Positions 5,301 to 54,139 of a stretch of DNA of 64,000 bases are shown here, one piece after another (the first letter of the stretch is position 1; every line of letters starts with the position of its first letter). The stretch spans positions 36,704,001 through 36,768,000 of the forward strand of contig OZ024751.1 of assembly GCA_964016885.1 (NCBI GenBank). Reading direction: 5' to 3'. Both the position numbers and the translations under genes were made by a program. The DNA is from Eledone cirrhosa. Taxonomy: Eukaryota. A model generated the notes under the pieces. It was not told where the DNA came from, searched no databases, and worked only from the letters and a program-made list of their open reading frames with translations.

Positions 5301-5305
<5 letters not shown>

Positions 5306-5495
5306 AACGAGTAGGACCCCGACGGCTGAGCTCAAGCCGTATCGACGGCTAATTGAGTCCAGAATTAGCCGTCGAAACGGCTTGAGCTCAGTCGTCGGGG
5401 TCCTACTCGTTCCTATTACCCACTCTACTACTCTAAGTATTGAGTACTTTGGTGCGTTATGGTCCACTTGGTTCATTACCACATTTCCTTCGTTA
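5301..5495 (+). mobile_element. Palindrome-plus-tail element in (TA)n, copy 1 (arm type ggaacgagtagga)
   Basis: ~55-bp inverted arms followed by a conserved ~80-bp tail (tacccactctacta...ccttcgtta), flanked by (TA)n on both sides. Confidence 0.9.
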
Positions 5496-5547
5496 TATAT
5501 ATATACAATATATTAATAAATGGAAATTATATTTTTAAAACCATATT

Positions 5548-5613
5548 TATTTTATTATACATATTTCAAGGGCAACCAAGGCAAATTATGGTGCGCTTTC
5601 ATCAGATAAAATA
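5548..5613 (-). ncRNA. Type I hammerhead ribozyme motif in a PLE-like pLTR fragment (~5510-5645)
   Basis: Minus strand: tattttat-CTGATGA-aagcgcacca..tggttgccctt-GAAA-TATGTA-TA^ataaaata; 8-bp stem I; homologous to the copies at 25084-25152 and 25477-25542. Confidence 0.82.
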
Positions 5614-6097
5614 CAGATTTGTTTTATAAATAAATATTGACATACCCGAAAAAAAAAAAAAAAAAAAAAGACAACCTTAACGGTTGGAGCTAAGAGAATA
5701 CTCATCGCAAGAACAGCCATTAAAACAGCTAAATGTTGTCAAAGCCAGCGATGGGCAAAAATGCCTCAGAGGACAGAAAGCAGCGGCCAGTGGTCAACAG
5801 AAAGACAATCCACAAGGTGGGTGACAGGATGATGAAATATAGAAAGGATTGAATGAGGTGGAGGACAAAGGGAAGTGCACTGTAGCACAGAAGTGACAGG
5901 AAGAAGAAATAAAGAAAGGTGATGTACAAGACAACTACACAGCAAAATTGTTTCGCACGATTTAATTGAGAGTACCATTTTAAAATGGTGGATCGAGCAA
6001 CAGAAAAATAACTCTTTCTGCGGGTATGATGTGTGTCTGATTAAATAAACCACACAAATCCTTCTATGTGTGTGCGTAAGTATACATATATCTACAC

Positions 6098-8955: not shown

Positions 8956-9015
8956 TTCTAATATTTGAAATAAATTTACGATTGGTTGAGATATAGCTGT
9001 CATTATTGGTTACAG

Positions 9016-9428
9016 TGGTGGATTGGCAGTATCGGTAGAGCGTCGGACAACATGCTTTGTGGCATAGAGTTACGTCCTTTATGATCTGAGTTCAAATCCC
9101 GCCGAGGTTAACTTTGCCTTTCATCCTTACGGGGTCGATAAAGTAAAGTACCAGTAATGTACTGGGGTATAGCTGGTCTTGTGCCTAAAATAGAAACAAT
9201 TATTGGTTACAGTGGTGGATTGGCAGTATCGTAGAGCGTCGGACAACATGCTTTGTGGCATAGAGTTTCGGCCCTTTGCGTTCTGAGTTCAAATCCCACC
9301 GAGAGTAGCTTTGCATTTCATTCTTACGGGTTCGAGAAAATACTGCACCAGTAATGTACTGGGGTCGATTTTATCGACTTTTCCCTCCCCGAAAATTGCT
9401 GGTTCTGTACCTAAAGTTGAACAATTAT
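9016..9428 (+). mobile_element. Head-to-tail dimer of family-1 SINEs
   Basis: Copies at ~9016-9203 and ~9213-9428; attattggt(t/a)acagt occurs at 9002, 9199 and 9424. Confidence 0.9.
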
Positions 9429-14814: not shown

Positions 14815-15404
14815 TTTTTTACAGTTGAGTGGACAGTACAATGTGAATTATTCCCCTTGGTGAACCTGGGAATCGAACTCACAACCTTGCTATCATAAAC
14901 CTAACACTCTAACTAACAATCCACCTGCCGCTTTGTAGTTGGAAATTTGGAGCACAGCAGAGAAAAATTGTGCAGAATTTGGTGGTCAAAACAACAATAA
15001 CAACAAAGAAAAATATCGATTTTACTGATCTGGCTGGAGACTTTAAGCAGGTGGATGTCTGATTGATTTAATCAGCTGGAGACAATATTGTGTATTGGCC
15101 GACGTATACATACATATATATACATATATATATATATACATATACATACATATATACACGGACACTCACACACACAGAGGCACGCTCATAGATAGATAGA
15201 TAGACACAATTGCGCGCGCACATACACGCACATACACACACACACACACTCTCACACACACATATACATGTATTATACATAGAGAGACAGAGTGAGGGGA
15301 GAGAGAGATAGGTGTTGACAGATAAATAGACAAAGATAGATATATAGATAGTTAGATGGATATATATATATATAGACATATATAGATGGATATATATATA
15401 TATA

Positions 15405-15594
15405 TAACGAATGAAGTGTGGTAAGGAACCAGATGGACCATAACACACCAGAGTACTCAATACTTAGAGTAGTAGTGTGGGTAATAGGAAAATGTTTAAC
15501 CCCGACGGCAGAGCTCAAGCCGTTTCGACGGCTATTTCACTCAAAAAAAAGCCGCCGAAACGGCTTGAGCTCTGCCGTCGGGGTTAAACATTTT

Positions 15595-15599
<5 letters not shown>
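15405..15599 (-). mobile_element. Palindrome-plus-tail element, copy 2 (arm type ggaaaatgtttaa)
   Basis: Tail then hairpin in reverse orientation, within (TA)n. Confidence 0.9.
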
Positions 15600-15666
<67 letters not shown>

Positions 15667-19433: not shown

Positions 19434-19465
<32 letters not shown>

Positions 19466-19470
<5 letters not shown>

Positions 19471-19662
19471 AAAATGTATGACCCCGACGGCAGAGCTCAA
19501 GCCGTTTTGACGGCTATTTCTGGACTGTCCAGAAATAGCCGTCGAAACGGCTTGAGCTCTGCCGTCGGGGTCATACATTTTCCTATTACCCACTCTACTA
19601 CCCTAAGTATTGAGTACTCTGGTACGTTATGGTCCATCTGGTTCCTTACCACAACTCCTTCG

Positions 19663-19664
<2 letters not shown>
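19466..19664 (+). mobile_element. Palindrome-plus-tail element, copy 3 (arm type ggaaaatgtatga; most intact)
   Basis: 60-bp arms 19466-19525 and 19527-19586 with a 1-nt centre and one mismatch, then the tail. Confidence 0.93.
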
Positions 19665-19712
<48 letters not shown>

Positions 19713-24741: not shown

Positions 24742-24900
24742 AGAAAATGTATGACCCCGACGGCAGAGCTCAAGCCGTCGAAACGGCTTGCGCTCTGCCG
24801 TCGGGGTCATACATTTTCCTATTACCCACTCTACTACCCTAAGTATTGAGTACTCTGGTGCGTTATGGTCCATCTGGTTCCTTACCACAACTCCTTCGTT

Positions 24901-24901
<1 letters not shown>
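24739..24901 (+). mobile_element. Palindrome-plus-tail element, copy 4 (centre deleted)
   Basis: Deletion between the two internal agccgt direct repeats; tail intact. Confidence 0.88.
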
Positions 24902-24991
<90 letters not shown>

Positions 24992-25083
24992 GGAGGTGAG
25001 TTTTATTGATATGTTTTATTGATATGTTGATTTAAAACTGCACTATCCACAAGTGTTTTTTAGCCTTCATATCATGTTCTCCT

Positions 25084-25152
25084 GTTTTATCTGATGAAAA
25101 CACAAATATTATTGCATGATGATGTTTGTTTTTGAAATGCGCATAATAAAAT
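25084..25152 (+). ncRNA. Type I hammerhead ribozyme motif
   Basis: gttttat-CTGATGA-aaacacaaatattat..atgatgatgtttgttttt-GAAA-TGCGCA-TA^ataaaat; palindromic stem III. Confidence 0.8.
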
Positions 25153-25183
25153 ATATGGAACTCCTTTAACCATCTTTTGATCT

Positions 25184-25255
<72 letters not shown>

Positions 25256-25261
<6 letters not shown>

Positions 25262-25670
25262 GATATTAAACAAATGGAAACTATATTTATAAAACCATAT
25301 TTATTTCATTATACATATTTCGGGGATACCATATTAAAAATATGGCATGCCTTCGTCAGATAAAATACAATATATAAACAGTTTTATAAATAATTTTGAC
25401 GTACCATAAGTATGAGCGACCATTATGTAGGAAGCTGGTTTGCGTCAAAATTATTTATAAAACTGTTTATATATTGTATTTTATCTGACGAAGGCATGCC
25501 ATATTTTTAATATGGTATCCCCGAAATATGTATAATGAAATAAATATGGTTTTATAAATATAGTTTCCAATTGTTTAATATCGTATATCTACTCCAAAAA
25601 CTTGTCGAGTGCTTTATATCAGTTATAAAATATTTACTTGTTGTAACCCAACAATTTTAAATAAAACTTT

Positions 25671-25675
<5 letters not shown>
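25256..25675 (+). mobile_element. Hammerhead-bearing pLTR insertion with ~145-bp 5' fold-back inversion plus tail
   Basis: Arms 25256-25401 and 25443-25588 (one mismatch), 41-bp spacer, ~85-bp unique tail, (TA)n on both sides. Confidence 0.88.
25477..25542 (+). ncRNA. Type I hammerhead ribozyme motif (mirror copy on - strand at 25302-25367)
   Basis: tattttat-CTGACGA-aggcatgccatatt ttt aatatggtatcccc-GAAA-TATGTA-TA^atgaaata. Confidence 0.82.
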
Positions 25676-25725
<50 letters not shown>

Positions 25726-28812: not shown

Positions 28813-29250
28813 AAATGGGGAGAAGAATACTGCAGGTTGCACATGGATAACATGTTATAAAATGAGTCCCTCATCAGTGATTTGCCAACGATCATAGATA
28901 TTTCATTGCATTAAAAATCATATACTTCACGTTGGTCCAATAATAACCAAATTAAGTTATTAGGACAATTAAACCGCGTAAAGCGAGTGAGACAAGTAAA
29001 CAACAAAGAGGAAAGCTAACCGTAGATAGGAAGGGCACATAAATTTTAGTACACCATTAACGAAGCTCTAGTTCGCGGCCAAGCTAACGAATGCAAATTC
29101 GGTCTGTAGCTTTAGCACTCGGATGGGGAAAAAGTACCCCAGAGTAATAACAATACGTTTAGACAGCTTAGCAAATCAAATATAGCGATCGGCAGTCCAG
29201 CCGCATCATTAGAGCAACGAAAATACAGGACTCAGGAAAAGATTTTATAT

Positions 29251-29352
29251 ATAGGAAAATGTTTAACCCCCGACGGCAGAGCTCTACTACCCTAAGTATT
29301 GAGTACTCTGGTGCGTTATGGTCCATCTGGTTCCTTACCACTCTTCCTTCGT

Positions 29353-29354
<2 letters not shown>
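29251..29354 (+). mobile_element. Palindrome-plus-tail element, copy 5 (hairpin deleted)
   Basis: Left arm is joined to the tail through ctct microhomology. Confidence 0.85.
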
Positions 29355-29433
<79 letters not shown>

Positions 29434-36042: not shown

Positions 36043-36370
36043 ATTTCTTGACCTTTTTATCTAATTACGTCTTTAACAACTAAAATATGTGGTCGACAAC
36101 CTCAACACCACCACAACAACAACTACAAATACAACACCACCACCATCACCAACAACTACAACAACAACATCACTACCATCAACAACTACAACAACAATAT
36201 AAACATCATTACCAACAACTAGGAAACAATAACAACAATTGTACCATTACAACCAATATTAACATACACCCTAACAACAACAGCAATAACAACTACTACA
36301 ACAACAGCTACAACAACTACTACAACAGCAACAATAACAACTACAACAACTACTACAACAACAACAATAA
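35865..36370. repeat. (CTA)n and (CAA)n-rich simple repeats
   Basis: Direct reading. Confidence 0.93.
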
Positions 36371-36429
36371 CATAGCTTATATACTTTTTATCAAATTATA
36401 TCGTTAACAACTAAAAGATGTGGTCAGTT

Positions 36430-39400
36430 ACAACAACAACACTACCAACACCAACACCAACACCAACACTACCAACAACAACAACACTACCAACACCAAC
36501 ACCAACACTACCAACAACAACAACACTACCAACACCAACACCAACAATACCAACAACACCAACACTACCAGCACCAACACTACCAACACCAACACCAACA
36601 CTACCAACAACACCAACACTACCAACACCAACACCAACACTACCAACACCAACACCAACACTACCAACAACACCAACACTACCAACAACAACAACACTAC
36701 CAACAACACCAACACTACCAACACCAACACCAACACTACCAACACCAACACCAACACTACCAACAACACCAACACTACCAACAACAACAACACTACCAAC
36801 AACACCAACACTACCAACACCAACACCAACACTACCAACACCACCAACACTACCAACAACACCAACACTACCAACACCAACACTACCAACACCAACACCA
36901 ACACTACCAACAACAACAACACTACCAACAACACCAACACTACCAACACCAACACCAACACTACCAACAACACCAACACTACCAACAACAACAACACTAC
37001 CAACAACACCAACACTACCAACACCAACACCAACACCACCAACACTACCAACAACAACAACACTACCAACAACACCAACGCTACCAACAACACCAACACT
37101 ACCAACAACAACAACACTACCAACAACACCAACGCCAAGACCAACACTACCAACAACACCAACACTACCAACAACACCAACACCAACACCAACACTACCA
37201 ACAACACCAACACTACCAACAACACCAACACTACCAACAACACCAACACCAACACCAACACCAACACTACCAACAACACCAACACTACCAACAACACCAA
37301 CACTACCAACAACACCAACACTACCAACAACACCAACACTACCAACAACACCAACACCAACACCAACACTACCAACAACACCAACACTACCAACAACACC
37401 AACACCAACACCAACACCAACACTACCAACAACACCAACACTACCAACAACAACAACACTACCAACAACACCAACACTACCAACAACACCAACACTACCA
37501 ACACCACCAACACTACCAACAACAACAACACTACCAACAACACCAACGCCAAGACCAACACTACCAACAACACCAACACTACCAACAACACCAACACCAA
37601 CACCAACACTACCAACAACAACAACACTACCAACAACACCAACACCAACACCAACACCAACACTACCAACAACACCAACACTACCAACAACAACAACACT
37701 ACCAACAACACCAACACTACCAACACCACCAACACTACCAACAACACCAACACTACCAACAACAACAACACTACCAACAACACCAACGCCAAGACCAACA
37801 CTACCAACAACACCAACACTACCAACAACACCAACACCAACACCAACACTACCAACAACACCAACACTACCAACAACACCAACACTACCAACAACACCAA
37901 CACCAACACCAACACCAACACTACCAACAACACCAACACTACCAACAACACCAACACTACCAACAACACCAACACTACCAACAACACCAACACTACCAAC
38001 AACACCAACACTACCAACAACACCAACACCAACACCAACACTACCAACAACACCAACACTACCAACAACACCAACACCAACACCAACACCAACACTACCA
38101 ACAACACCAACGCTACCAACAACACCAACACTACCAACAACAACAACACTACCAACAACACCAACGCCAACACCAACACTACCAACAACAACAACACTAC
38201 CAACAACACCAACACTACCAACAACACCAACACTACCAACAACAACAACACTACCAACAACACCAACACTACCAACACCACCAACACTACCAACAACAAC
38301 AACACTACCAACAACACCAACACTACCAACAACAACAACACTACCAACAACACCAACGCCAACACCAACACTACCAACAACAACAACACTACCAACAACA
38401 CCAACGCCAACACCAACACTACCAACAACACCAACACTACCAACACCACCAACACTACCAACAACAACAACACTACCAACAACACCAACACTACCAACAA
38501 CAACAACACTACCAACAACACCAACGCCAACACCAACACTACCAACAACACCAACACTACCAACAACACCAACACTACCAACAACACCAACACTACCAAC
38601 AACAACAACACTACCAACAACACCAACGCCAACACCAACACTACCAACAACAACAACACTACCAACAACACCAACACTACCAACACCAACACTACCAACA
38701 CCACCAACACTACCAACAACACCAACACCAACAACAACACCAACAACAACACCAACACCAACACCAACACCAACACTACCAACAACACCAACACTACCAA
38801 CAACAACAACACTACCAACAACACCAACACCAACAACAACACCAACAACAACACCAACACCAACACCAACACCAACACTACCAACAACAACAACACTACC
38901 AACAACACCAACACTACCAACAACACCAACACTACCAACACCACCAACACTACCAACAACAACAACACTACCAACAACACCAACACCAACAACAACACCA
39001 ACACCAACACCAACACTACCAACAACACCAACACTACCAACACCACCAACACTACCAACAACACCAACACTACCAACACCACCAACACTACCAACAACAA
39101 CAACACTACCAACAACACCAACACCAACAACAACACCAACAACAACACCAACACCAACACCAACACCAACACTACCAACAACACCAACACTACCAACAAC
39201 AACAACACTACCAACAACACCAACACCAACAACAACACCAACAACAACACCAACACCAACACCAACACCAACACTACCAACAACAACAACACTACCAACA
39301 ACACCAACACTACCAACAACACCAACACTACCAACACCACCAACACTACCAACAACAACAACACTACCAACAACACCAACACCAACAACAACACCAACAA

Positions 39401-42400
39401 CAACACCAACACCAACACCAACACCAACACTACCAACAACACCAACACTACCAACACCACCAACACTACCAACAACAACAACACTACCAACAACACCAAC
39501 ACCAACAACAACACCAACAACAACACCAACACCAACACCAACACCAACACTACCAACAACACCAACACTACCAACAACAACAATACTACCAACAACACCA
39601 ACGCTACCAACAACACCAACACTACCAACAACACCAACACTACCAACAACACCAACACTACCAACACCAACACTACCAACAACACCAACACTACCAACAC
39701 CAACACTACCAACACCAACACCAACACTACCAACAACACCAACACTACCAACACCAACACTACCAACAACACCAACACTACCAACAACACCAACACTACC
39801 AACAACAACAACACTACCAACACCAACACCAACACTACCAACAACACCAACACTACCAACACCAACACCAACACTACCAACACCAACACCAACACCACCA
39901 ACACTACCAACAACAACAACACTACCAACAACAACACTACCAACAACACCAACACCAACACCAACACTACCAACAACACCAACACCAACACCAACACTAC
40001 CAACAACACCAACACTACCAACACCAACACCAACACTACCAACACCAACACCAACACTACCAACAACAACAACACTACCAACAACACCAACACTACCAAC
40101 ACCAACACCAACACTACCAACACCACCAACACTACCAACAACACCAACACTACCAACAACACTACCAACAACAACAACACTACCAACAACACCAACACTA
40201 CCAACAACAACAACACTACCAACAACACCAACACTACCAACACCAACACCAACACTACCAACACCACCAACACTACCAACAACACCAACACTACCAACAA
40301 CACTACCAACAACAACAACACTACCAACAACACCAACACTACCAACACCAACACCAACACTACCAACACCACCAACACTACCAACAACACCAACACTACC
40401 AACAACACCAACACTACCAACAACAACAACACTACCAACACCAACACTACCAACACCAACACCAACACTACCAACAACACCAACACTACCAACAACAACA
40501 ACACTACCAACACCAACACTACCAACACCAACACCAACACTACCAACACCAACACCAACACTACCAACACCAACACCAACACCACCAATACTACCAACAA
40601 CAACAACACTACCGACAACACCAACACTACCAACACCAACACCAACACTACCAACACCACCAACACTACCAACAACACCAACACTACCAACAACACCAAC
40701 ACTACCAACAACAACAACACTACCAACACCAACACTACCAACAACAACAACACTACCAACAACACCAACACTACCAACACCAACACCAACACCAACACCA
40801 CCAACACTACCAACAACAACACCAACACTACCAACACCACCAACACTACCAACAACAACAACACTACCAACAACACCAACACTACCAACACCAACACTAC
40901 CAACAACAACAACACTACCAACAACACCAACACTACCAACACCAACACTACCAACACCAACACTACCAACAACAACAACACTACCAACAACAACAACACT
41001 ACCAACAACACCAACACTACCAACACCAACACTACCAACAACACCAACACTACCAACACTACCAACAACACCAACACTACCAACAACACCAACACTACCA
41101 ACACCAACACCAACACTACCAACAACACCAACACCAACACCAACACTACCAACAACACCAACACTACCAACACCAACACTACCAACAACACCAACAACAC
41201 CAACACCAACACCAACAACAACAACACTACCAACAACACCAACACTACCAACAACAACAACACTACCAACAACACCAACGCTACCAACAACACCAACACT
41301 ACCAACAACACCAACACTACCAACAACACCAACACTACCAACAACAACAACACTACCAACAACACCAACGCTACCAACAACACCAACACTACCAACAACA
41401 CCAACACTACCAACACCAACACCAACACTACCAACAACACCAACACCAACACCAACACTACCAACAACACCAACACTACCAACACCAACACTACCAACAA
41501 CACCAACAACACCAACACTACCAACACCAACACCAACACCAACACTACCAACAACACCAACACTACCAACACCAACACCAACACTACCAACACCAACACT
41601 ACCAACAACACCAACAACACCAACACTACCAACACCAACACCAACACCAACACTACCAACAACACCAACACTACCAACACCAACACCAACACTACCAACA
41701 CCAACACTACCAACAACACCAACACTACCCCCACCACCACCACACTCACCACGATCACAAGCAACAACACCAACAACACCAACACCAACAACAACACCAA
41801 CAACAACACCAACACCAACACCAACACCAACACTACCAACAACACCAACACTACCAACAACAACAATACTACCAACAACACCAACGCTACCAACAACACC
41901 AACACTACCAACAACACCAACACTACCAACAACACCAACACTACCAACACCAACACTACCAACAACACCAACACTACCAACACCAACACTACCAACACCA
42001 ACACCAACACTACCAACAACACCAACACTACCAACACCAACACCAACACCAACACCAACACTACCAACAACACCAACACTACCAACAACACCAACACTAC
42101 CAACACCAACACCAACACCAACACCAACACCAACACCAACACCAACACTACCAACAACAACAACACTACCAACACCAACACTACCAACAACACCAACACT
42201 ACCAACACCAACACTACCAACACCAACACCAACACTACCAACACCAACACCAACACTACCAACATCACCAACACTACCAACACCAACACCAACACTACCA
42301 ACACCAACACTACCAACACCAACACCAACACTACCAACACCAACACCAACACTACCAACATCACCAACACTACCAACACCAACACCAACACTACCAACAC

Positions 42401-43940
42401 CAACACCAACACCACCAACACTACCAACAACAACAACACTACCAACAACACCAACACTACCAACAACACCAACACCAACACCAACACTACCAACAACACC
42501 AACACTACCAACACCAACACCAACACTACCAACACCAACAACACTACCAACAACACCAACACTACCAACACCAACACCAACACTACCAACACCACCAACA
42601 CCACCAACACTACCAACAACACCAACACTACCAACAACAACAACACTACCAACACCAACACCAACACTACCAACACCAACACCAACAACACCAACACTAC
42701 CAACAACACCAACACCAACACCAACACTACCAACAACACCAACACTACCAACACCAACACCAACACTACCAACAACAACAACACTACCAACAACACCAAC
42801 ACTACCAACACCAACACCAACACTACCAACACCACCAACACCACCAACACTACCAACAACACCAACACTACCAACAACAACAACACTACCAACACCAACA
42901 CTACCAACACCAACACCAACACTACCAACACCAACACCAACACTACCAACACCAACACCAACACCACCAACACTACCAACAACAACAACACTACCAACAA
43001 CACCAACACTACCAACACCAACACCAACACTACCAACACCACCAACACTACCAACAACACCAACACTACCAACAACACCAACACTACCAACAACAACAAC
43101 ACTACCAACACCAACACTACCAACAACAACAACACTACCAACAACACCAACACTACCAACACCAACACCAACACCAACACCAACACTACCAACAACACCA
43201 ACACCAACACCAACACTACCAACAACACCAACACTACCAACACCAACACCAACAACAACAACACTACCAACAACACCAACACTACCAACAACAACAACAC
43301 TACCAACAACACCAACACTACCAACAACACCAACACTACCAACAACACCAACACTACCAACACCAACACTACCAACAACACCAACAACACCAACACCAAC
43401 ACCAACAACAACAACACTACCAACAACACCAACACTACCAACAACAACAACACTACCAACAACACCAACGCTACCAACAACACCAACACTACCAACACCA
43501 ACACCAACACTACCAACAACACCAACACTACCAACACCAACACTACCAACACCAACACTACCAACACTACCAACACCACCAACACTACCAACAACACCAA
43601 CACTACCAACACCAACACCAACACTACCAACAACACCAACACCAACACCAACACTACCAACAACACCAACACTACCAACACCAACACTACCAACAACACC
43701 AACAACACCAACACTACCAACACCAACACCAACACCAACACTACCAACAACACCAACACTACCAACACCAACACCAACACTACCAACACTACCAACACTA
43801 CCCCCACCACCACCACACTCACCACGATCACAAGCCTCCTCCATCACCACCACCATATCTACCACAACCAGCATCAGCACTCTCCCCATTTCCACCCCCA
43901 CCCCATCACCACCACCACCACACCACCCACAACAACAACA
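36430..43940. repeat. ~7.4-kb compound ACC/AAC/ACT triplet-phase satellite
   Basis: Built from CCAACA, CTA and ACA units with almost no G; internal duplication marked by ccccc...acgatcacaagc at 41728 and 43801. Confidence 0.97.
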
Positions 43941-44072: not shown

Positions 44073-44971
44073 CCACATCTAATGAACATTCCTCTCTATA
44101 TTTTATTTGTTAAGCTTAGTTGAGCCATCAACGACCGATGGAATAGATGTGGTGATGTTGTGACCAGATGTCTACCAGATCTAATGTCTCCACCACATCA
44201 GATGTACGGTCCTCTCTATATTTTATTTGTTAAGCTTAGTTGAGCCATCAACGACCGATGGAATAGATGTGGTGCTGTTGTGACCAGATGTCTACCAGAT
44301 CTAATGTCTCCACCACATCAGATGTACGGTCCTCTCTATATTTTATTTGTTAAGCTTAGTTGAGCCATCAACGACCGATGGAATAGATGTGGTGCTGTTG
44401 TGACCAGATGTCTACCAGATCTAAAGTCTCCACCACATCTAATGAACATTCCTCTCTATATTTTATTTGTTAAGCTTAGTTGAGCCATCAACGACCGATG
44501 GAATAGATGTGGTGCTGTTGTGACCAGATGTCTACCAAATCTAATGTCTCCACCACATCTAATGAACATTCTTCTCTATATTTTATTTGTTAAGCTTAGT
44601 TGAGCCATCAACGACCGATGGAATAGATGTGGTGATGTTGTGACCAGATGTCTACCAGATCTAATGTCTCCACCACATCAGATGTACGGTCCTCTCTATA
44701 TTTTATTTGTTAAGCTTAGTTGAGCCATCAACGACCGATGGAATAGATGTGGTGTTGTTGTGACCAGATGTCTACCAGATCTAATGTCTCCACCACATCT
44801 AATGAACATTCCTCTCTATATTTTATTTGTTAAGTTTAGTTGAGCCATCAACGACCGATGGAATAGATGTGGTGATGTTGTGACCAGATGTCTACCAGAT
44901 CTAATGTCTCCACCACATCTAATGAACATTCCTCTCTATATTTTATTTGTTAAGTTTAGTTGAGCCATCAA
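44073..44971. repeat. 120-bp tandem repeat, ~7.5 copies
   Basis: Exact 120-bp period; two interleaved unit variants (ctaatgaacatt versus cagatgtacggt). Confidence 0.97.
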
Positions 44972-45175
44972 CACCTGAGGGAAAAGTTGTAGGGCTGTTG
45001 GGACATGCTATATACCAGTTTCTACATCTGTTGCAGATGTCTCCCAGATTTAAGGTCTCCGCTACAGATTTGTTCTTCTGTCCTCTTCTCCATCCCTTTC
45101 TCTCCCTAGCTTTTTTCCCTAGAATATGATGGTCTTCCCACCTTGTAACATGGCTATACCAGCTTAGCTTTGTTG
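44972..45175 (-). mobile_element. Degenerate RTE LINE 3' fragment
   Basis: Minus strand reads KLSWYSHVTR...GRRG, resembling the RLRWFGHV.R...GRP motif. Confidence 0.45.
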
Positions 45176-48977: not shown

Positions 48978-49033
<56 letters not shown>

Positions 49034-49038
<5 letters not shown>

Positions 49039-49215
49039 AACGAGTAGGACCACGACGGCTGAGCTCAAGCCGTCTCGACGGCTAATTGTGGACTAAAATG
49101 CTTGAGCTCAGCCGTCGGGGTTCTACTCGTTCCTATTACCCACTCTACTACCCTAAGTATTGAGTACTTTGGTGCGTTATGGTCCACCTGGTTCCTTACC
49201 ACATTTCCTTCGTTA
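49034..49215 (+). mobile_element. Palindrome-plus-tail element, copy 6 (arm type ggaacgagtagga)
   Basis: Same subfamily as copy 1; right arm partly deleted. Confidence 0.9.
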
Positions 49216-49291
49216 TATATATATATATATATATTTGTGTGTACACACACACATATATATATATACTTACACACACACATATATATAAACT

Positions 49292-53645: not shown

Positions 53646-53842
53646 CTTATAATCCTGAACTTACCACTGATAACTAAATGTGTATGCTCTGGCTCATGGA
53701 CTGGTGCTTCGGAAGTGCAAGTCCCGCGAATTGATTGAGCTAGTGGAAAGTTCAACGTACTAGCACAAACTCAGTTTGTCTGCTTCGATACACTTACATA
53801 TATATATACATATATATATACATATATATATACACACATATA

Positions 53843-54043
53843 TAACAAAGAGGGTGTGGTAAGATACCAGATGGACCATAATGCACCAGAGTACTCAATT
53901 CTTAGGGTAGTAGAGTGGGTAATAAGAAAAGAGTCAGGACCCCGATGGCTGAGCACCGGCCGTTTCGACAGCTAGATGCGAACAGTTCTGATATAGCTGT
54001 CGAAAGGGCCGGAGCTCAACCGTCGGGGTCCTGACTCTTTTCC
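53843..54043 (-). mobile_element. Palindrome-plus-tail element, copy 8 (arm type ggaaaagagtcagga)
   Basis: Same tail; arm sequence differs from the other subfamilies but remains self-complementary. Confidence 0.88.
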
Positions 54044-54139
54044 ATATACATATATATTTATATTTATTATATAAATATATAGGTGTGTATTGTAGGTTTA
54101 TATATTCTGGTTAATCGTGTACCTGTATACGTAGTCTAC

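What the first reader, a model, noticed from the sequence alone, without database searches (positions are those of the whole stretch)
25084..25675. Fold-back insertion placing a hammerhead on both strands, with covarying paralogs
Seen: 145-bp arms with one mismatch, so recent, plus a tail. The inverted arm stops exactly where the element reads cgTATAT and merges into the flanking (TA)n. Across the three paralogs (5548, 25084, 25477), stem II is almost completely different in sequence yet still pairs, and stem III swaps TATGTA for TGCGCA, while the core and stem I are fixed. This is direct evidence of selection on the ribozyme fold. It is also the clearest example of the inversion-plus-TA-microhomology insertion signature.
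Basis: partly seen in the sequence, partly recalled or inferred. Interest (0 to 1): 0.72.

Follow-up and report, generated by a model that had tools for sequence, protein, structure and literature searches.

The report
Penelope fold-back with hairpin-marked ends
This mirror-image insertion is a short stub of a very abundant Penelope-like jumping gene whose back-to-back ribozyme-like motifs are a known by-product of its shape, but its two fixed ends each lie a few bases before a copy of a small conserved hairpin that likely tells the copying enzyme where to start.

Summary
In detail: 146-bp arms with one mismatch, a 41-nt spacer, a tail of about 85 nt, and a type I hammerhead motif on each strand. 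It is a 5'-truncated, 5'-inverted copy of a (TA)n-targeted Penelope-like retroelement with Hydra-clade protein motifs; a parent copy with an open 749-codon frame was found. Inverted pLTR, tail, opposite-strand hammerheads and hammerhead covariation are all published. The span given joins two separate insertions. Outer ends are fixed and fold-back centres vary, so it is no MITE. TA microhomology at the ends is real but short (mostly 1-6 nt) and does not fix the position alone. Each end lies 3-10 nt before one of two copies of a bulged hairpin (RCTC..UY-GAGY) that covaries in 101 hairpins from distant marine relatives. Arm geometry favours two separate priming events, one per DNA end. I found neither point in print (four searches), but this scan has reported the same hairpins several times on other DNA of this genome. 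No cleavage, binding or expression was tested.

The parts
25256..25442 (-). Left arm: antisense copy of the pLTR from the inner start site (P) upstream; 25256-25401 pairs with the right arm, 25402-25442 (the 'spacer') is its unpaired continuation
25443..25673 (+). Right arm plus tail: sense copy of the pLTR 3' end down to the outer start site (T)
   Evidence: 97% to both pLTRs of full-length L061
25479..25540 (+). Type I hammerhead motif: stem I, CUGACGA 25485-25491, stem II 25492-25522, GAAA, palindromic stem III 25527-25532, predicted cut after 25534
25304..25365 (-). Mirror copy of the hammerhead motif in the left arm
25584..25588 (+). TATAT at the inner start site P; matches the (TA)n flank of the left arm
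25591..25613 (+). Hairpin 1 (ACTC-CAA..TTG-TC-GAGT-GCT), 2-7 nt after P; hairpin 2 follows T in full-length copies and is absent here
25589..25673 (+). Single-copy tail, the stretch between the two start sites
25184..25260 (.). (TA)n target, left side (shared with the neighbouring insertion)
25674..25723 (.). (TA)n target, right side; first 6 nt also match the element beyond T
24987..25191 (.). Separate two-armed insertion of a paralogous family: T-ended arm of about 20 nt (24987-25008, minus) and P-ended arm (25019-25191, plus) with the hammerhead core at 25091; the arms share no template
5498..5691 (-). P-ended arm of a third family with hammerhead core at 5605

Best explanation
The segment 25256-25673 is a truncated, inverted, non-coding copy of a (TA)n-targeted Penelope-like retroelement with Hydra-clade motifs, likely made when both ends of a cut (TA)n target each primed reverse transcription on the element RNA, one at each of two start sites that are likely positioned by two copies of a small bulged hairpin. 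Shown: parent element with RT fold; two fixed outer ends and a variable centre; both arms from one subfamily; each end 3-10 nt before a hairpin copy; hairpin covariation across distant relatives. Inferred: the GIY-YIG domain nicks both strands in (TA)n; protein (perhaps a dimer) binds the two hairpins; a 1-6-nt TA match picks the exact base; both cDNAs stop early, often near a structured region 250-285 nt upstream of T, and are joined through 0-6-nt overlaps; the tail is simply the distance between the two hairpins; the hammerhead works in the parent's tandem transcript, probably as a dimer through palindromic stem III, and is a passenger here.
For: Parent: L063 has inverted arm, partial pLTR, 749-codon open frame, pLTR, tail, (TA)n; model pLDDT 84, best fold match telomerase RT, E 3e-9. 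Of 83 copies taken in chromosome order by a tail word, 51 show an inverted arm; 46 of 48 with the outer end in view stop at P. Inner ends vary: 26 of 43 left arms reach further upstream than the right arm, 10 less far, 7 equal; in L033, L116 and window 24987-25191 the arms share no template; in L151 and L152 the P-ended arm is the long ORF-bearing one. 14 of 16 head-to-head pairs have one P end and one T end (hand count). Subfamily markers agree between arms at 568 of 574 cells, 205 discordant expected. Ends lie 3-10 nt before a hairpin in the families measured; hairpin 2 predicted and found for an unrelated window family, 335 hits, control 0. In metagenome relatives at 33-39% protein identity: 30 of 41 have the hairpin in the last 170 nt before the ORF (1.3 by shuffle), 19 of 41 have two; 12 of 21 repeat ends fall 0-8 nt before one (hand count); upper stem pairs 83, 61, 52 of 101 versus 44, 30, 25 permuted, minus strand 14, 16, 21 of 63.
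Against: Inner ends are more alike than independence predicts (17 of 43 within 20 nt, 9.6 expected, p 0.0014), which fits some snap-back. 32 of 83 copies show no inverted arm in the DNA held; 2 of 48 inverted arms do not end at P. 2 of 16 pairs are P/P or T/T. 9 of 21 repeat ends in relatives are not 0-8 nt before a hairpin by the strict rule. In two window-genome families hairpin 1 did not fit the pattern. The hairpin is weak by energy alone (z about -1.1 to -1.4) and almost lacks G-U pairs, so RNA and single-stranded DNA recognition are not told apart. Several family-level end classes rest on 1-3 copies. In the Poseidon element tested in vitro both strands used the same start sites and no homology to target (PMC11167929). 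P0001 has no Pfam or PDB sequence hit.
Confidence: 0.7

Rival explanations
1. One cDNA primed at T snaps back on itself and is copied toward the tail; the endonuclease then resolves the intermediate at P, the hairpins being DNA signals (self-priming and EN-mediated resolution, as proposed in PMC3846280 and PMC8557442).
For: Inner ends are coupled; 7 of 43 junctions are near-perfect palindromes and 10 of 43 have the geometry this model needs; both arms from one source; few G-U pairs in the hairpin.
Against: 26 of 43 left arms hold sequence that the right arm lacks; three insertions have arms with no shared template; P-ended arms can be over 3 kb and carry the ORF. It could still account for a minority of copies.
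Confidence: 0.15
2. Ends are set by TA microhomology alone; hairpins serve another step such as transcription, translation or packaging.
For: 14 of 15 family-site main classes have at least 2 nt of match against a background of 0.16-0.31 (my tally; families are related); alternative ends at two T sites track alternative TA steps.
Against: End position is constant while the match shrinks from 5 to 2 or 1 nt; other TA runs in the pLTR were not outer ends in 46 of 48 arms; one relative ends in an (ATTT)n flank still 2 nt before a hairpin.
Confidence: 0.1
3. An ordinary MITE or DNA transposon with terminal inverted repeats and TA target duplication.
For: The 30 best whole-element matches look alike at both ends.
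Against: Arm lengths vary from about 35 to over 400 nt, a one-sided tail is always present, and the same sequence is the pLTR of an RT-encoding element.
Confidence: 0.01
4. Inverted arms arise or are homogenised after insertion (palindrome repair, gene conversion).
For: 6 private variants are mirrored in both arms.
Against: 53 private variants are in one arm only; the unpaired centre is element sequence joined at varying points with short overlaps.
Confidence: 0.04

Closest known systems
Hydra clade of C-terminal EN+ Penelope-like elements, e.g. Hydra-1_Obim, Penelope-13_HM (Craig et al. 2021, PMC8557442; passages, section 11, supplement parts 1, 2, 52 of 59 read)
   Same: RW(K/R), DKT, CxCX5C linker, CxxC and CxH near the C-terminus, (TA)n target, canonical hammerhead in the pLTR; Penelope-13_HM has a 5' inverted copy with the hammerhead listed on both strands.
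   Different: Unit 3.9-4.1 kb (long 3' UTR) against 'generally under 3 kb'; tail 78-99 nt between hairpins against 30-40 bp; the paired hairpins are not mentioned in the parts read, though one is visible by eye at the 3' end of Hydra-2_Amil.
Poseidon_Ac in vitro system (Frangieh et al. 2024, PMC11167929; parts 1-2 of 4 read, term search, supplement search without hits)
   Same: Two internal RT start sites that bound the tail; both target strands cut and extended; AT-rich target; hammerhead dispensable for insertion in vitro.
   Different: There the starts lie inside the ORF in an AC-rich stem-loop with no homology to target and no strand difference; here they lie before the ATG, each ahead of its own hairpin copy, with short TA homology, and one arm uses each site.
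PLE minimal and palindromic-helix-III hammerheads (Cervera and de la Pena 2014, PMC4209133; parts 1-2 of 4 read)
   Same: Type I, long helix II, extra nucleotide next to A9, palindromic helix III, families full of compensatory changes, pairs on opposite strands 100-700 bp apart.
   Different: Stem II here has an invariant C-Y mismatch at its fourth position in 7 of 7 clusters; 67,334 pattern matches against thousands reported.
Inverted pLTR with optional tail in Adineta Penelope (Arkhipova et al. 2013, PMC3846280; passages read)
   Same: Head-to-head inverted arm lacking the tail; palindromes at junctions.
   Different: Explained there by self-priming; most junctions here do not fit that alone.
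LINE-1 twin priming (recalled, not read here)
   Same: Second target end primes internally; short overlaps at the inversion joint.
   Different: Here the internal site is fixed and the two cDNAs usually copy the same stretch, giving an inverted repeat.

Membership tests
Penelope-like elements (EN+) | Single ORF with telomerase-related RT | tested here: met
   749-codon frame in L063 with YRDD; best fold matches are telomerase and other RTs
Penelope-like elements (EN+) | GIY-YIG endonuclease domain | tested here: inconclusive
   C-terminal Y..YVG..R..H pattern seen by eye; no Pfam hit; domain not folded and searched alone
Penelope-like elements (EN+) | Tandem pLTRs, 5' inverted truncated copy, one-sided tail | tested here: met
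   L061, L062, L063
Penelope-like elements (EN+) | Hammerhead in the pLTR | tested here: met
Hydra clade | RWK motif, DKT in place of DKG | tested here: met
   RIRWRAF and SDKTNN in P0001 (K to R; a sister family reads RWK)
Hydra clade | CxCX5C linker; CxxC and CxH around conserved E and N; CCHH absent | tested here: met
   CNCRDRYKC, CDLCAEE, CRH; one Cys only before YVG; read by eye
Hydra clade | (TA)n target | tested here: met
   78 of 83 tails run into (TA)n, 3 into short TA, 2 into the ORF; 42 of 43 left flanks
Hydra clade | Placement in an RT tree with published Hydra elements | not tested
   Published sequences were read only by eye
Hydra clade | Typical, not defining: length under 3 kb; tail 30-40 bp | tested here: not met
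   Unit 3,857-4,091 bp; hairpin spacing 78-99 nt
Type I hammerhead ribozyme | CUGANGA, GAAA, UH core with three helices | tested here: met
   96% of cells paired, core invariant in 9 of 9 representatives; note 8 of 9 were found with a core pattern
Type I hammerhead ribozyme | Self-cleavage | not testable with these tools
   Monomer fold is not the minimum-energy fold for any of the three window copies
MITE | Fixed-length terminal inverted repeats, no tail | tested here: not met
Non-LTR retrozyme | Tandem non-coding hammerhead units | tested here: not met
   Dispersed copies of the end of a coding element; definition from preprint 10.64898/2026.07.22.740005, part 1 of 5 read

The most novel reading that the evidence does not exclude
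Hydra-clade Penelope elements carry a clade-wide pair of bulged RNA hairpins, each a docking site for one reverse transcriptase of a dimer, so that both ends of the cut target are primed at once on one transcript a fixed few bases upstream of each hairpin. This would be the first defined RNA signal for start-site choice in these telomerase-related enzymes and would explain tail, inversion and 5'-end joining in one scheme.
Probability: 0.5. Interest if true: 0.75.

Novelty: new variant of a known kind. Interest (0 to 1): 0.52.

Why it matters
How Penelope-like elements form inverted ends, tails and microsatellite bias is named as open in PMC8557442. A young family with an open-frame parent, thousands of copies and a short, covarying candidate start signal gives a direct bench test.

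Tried and rejected
Whole-window repeat search was swamped by microsatellites. Rfam: no hammerhead or hairpin family. Pfam and PDB sequence searches of P0001 and alignment A1: nothing useful. First junction-mapping scripts failed or mis-anchored and were redone (L076 was a false anchor and was dropped). L038 and L039 were dropped as duplicates of the L036/L037 locus; 2 tail-to-tail matches and the last 13 of 100 listed places were not sampled. The pairing step crashed; pairs were counted by hand from its list. An early idea that arms are homogenised was rejected. An early worry that the A-C apposition next to the core kills this subfamily's ribozyme was dropped: PLE hammerheads commonly carry an extra nucleotide there. 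Literature searches for twin priming or a start-site stem-loop in Penelope elements found no such report; subscription papers and figure images are not covered, and unseen supplementary figures of PMC11167929 (S1, S2) may bear on this. No tree with published Hydra proteins was built.

Full report
Observation. The inverted repeat is real: 25256-25401 against 25443-25588, 146 bp, one mismatch, 41-nt spacer, then a single-copy tail to 25673, with (TA)n on both sides. A type I hammerhead motif sits at 25479-25540 (+) and is mirrored at 25304-25365; paralogs have cores at 25091 (+) and 5605 (-). Rfam does not detect them.

Family and parent. The window lies in a 3.0-Gb animal genome; the host was not determined (one named homolog is from Argonauta, 42% over 63%). 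A 31-nt tail word has 1,832 exact matches and a looser hammerhead-lineage pattern 67,334, counting arms; both reversed controls are 0. Tail words 3.9-4.1 kb apart led to full-length copies: (TA)n, inverted arm, partial pLTR, ORF, long 3' UTR, pLTR, tail, (TA)n. L063 has an open 749-codon frame; L061 and L062 are broken. The protein has no Pfam or PDB sequence hit but 37 homologs at 32-42%, a confident model and telomerase RT as best fold match. Its motifs match the Hydra-clade description. So the fold-back is the last 230-275 nt of such an element, once in each orientation.

Ends fixed, centre variable. The 30 best whole-element matches share both outer ends and differ at the centre; that set is biased, so I took 83 copies in chromosome order by the tail word alone. 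78 tails run into (TA)n, 3 into short TA and 2 into the ORF; 51 have an inverted arm, 46 of 48 visible outer ends are at one site (P, about 89 nt before the tail end T); 32 show no inverted arm in the DNA held. For 43 mapped copies the left arm stops 123-528 nt and the right arm 59-1,167 nt upstream of T; joints mostly overlap by 1-6 nt (21 of 44 rows) or are blunt (5), the rest have longer overlaps or inserts.

How the inversion forms. Both arms come from one source: 568 of 574 subfamily-marker cells agree, arm-arm divergence 1.1% against 4.1% between copies, and private variants are mostly one-sided (53 against 6). A single snap-back of the T-primed cDNA cannot give a left arm with sequence the right arm lacks, yet that is 26 of 43 copies; L033, L116 and the neighbour at 24987-25191 have arms with no shared template; in L151 and L152 the P-ended arm is the long, ORF-bearing one. 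14 of 16 head-to-head pairs have one P and one T end (hand count). Inference: each target end primes its own cDNA, as in LINE-1 twin priming (recalled). Against a pure version, inner ends are somewhat coupled (17 of 43 within 20 nt, 9.6 expected). One RNA read twice versus two pLTRs of one tandem transcript is not resolved.

What fixes P and T. Across the hammerhead families sampled, ends cluster 97-106 and 184-199 nt from the core. TA microhomology is present, mostly 1-6 nt (9 in one case), above a background of 0.16-0.31 for 2 nt or more, but varies while position does not. Each end lies 3-10 nt before a hairpin, RCTC, short upper stem, 2-nt UY bulge, GAGY, RCU; copy 1 is in the tail, copy 2 just after T and before the ATG. 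A two-motif pattern has 5,490 hits against 56 (it also catches unrelated tandem repeats, and 2 of 30 loci read were composites). For an unrelated window family I predicted copy 2 after the tail and found it (335 hits, control 0; the pattern required the motif, so misses are not counted). In 77 metagenome loci of distant relatives (58 with the ORF start analysed, 41 with enough upstream DNA) 30 have the hairpin and 19 have two, 12 of 21 repeat ends inside contigs fall 0-8 nt before one, and the upper stem covaries only with a 2-nt bulge and only on the sense strand. One copy is visible in the published Hydra-2_Amil consensus. That the hairpin binds the RT is inference.

The ribozyme. Nine family representatives give 96% paired cells and 14 of 17 pairs changed on both sides, above all 500 shuffles and all slid controls; relatedness and ascertainment by the core pattern inflate this somewhat. 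A C-Y mismatch at stem II position 4 is invariant in 7 of 7 clusters, and stem III is nearly always palindromic, as expected for dimeric PLE hammerheads. This shows selection in active lineages. In this copy a read-through RNA is predicted to be one 146-bp duplex (-228 kcal/mol), so the two motifs are probably inert. Activity is untested.

Comparison and novelty. Inverted pLTR, tail, (TA)n targeting, opposite-strand hammerheads, covariation and two RT start sites are in print. The longer tail, the paired hairpins and the population evidence for one start per target end were not found. I noted the hairpins and stated them before my first look-up; the scan's notes then showed the same reading several times on other DNA of this genome. 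Those notes are not independent support. Verdict: an ordinary stub of a known kind of element that exposes a plausible, unreported and testable start signal; interest 0.52.

Noticed in passing
window 5303-5495, 15395-15600, 19465-19670, 24742-24905, 29250-29355, 49033-49235, 53838-54046: A second fold-back family with the same plan (P end, hairpin 1, tail, T end in TA). Its parent has a Hydra-type ORF in 3.5-kb tandem units, but no CUGANGA core was found within 400 nt upstream of the tail; a stem and GAAA are present, so a variant ribozyme core is possible.
   Followed up: partly
window 27613 (minus): Compact canonical type I hammerhead of another family (CTGATGA, 5-bp stem II, GAAA-CTAG-TC).
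   Followed up: no
window 24987-25028: Joint of the neighbouring insertion holds a 13-nt tandem duplication, suggesting slippage during joining.
   Followed up: partly
window 36274-43824: 7.5-kb (CAA/CAC/TAC)-rich tandem array; also 120-bp tandem repeat at 44073-45004 and 197-bp repeat at 9002-9365.
   Followed up: no
L064:1-2965 (reversed): 310-bp tandem array at 99% identity next to element copies; the scan's notes describe a 310-bp hammerhead repeat, identity not checked.
   Followed up: no
L065: Two copies tail-to-tail around one short TA run.
   Followed up: no
L061/L062: The same broken full-length copy lies twice on C1, about 0.9 Mb apart and inverted, with shared flanks: a segmental duplication.
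   Followed up: no
L063 ORF residues 489-521: Asparagine-rich low-confidence insert between RT and linker, recalling N-rich inserts in rotifer Penelope.
   Followed up: no
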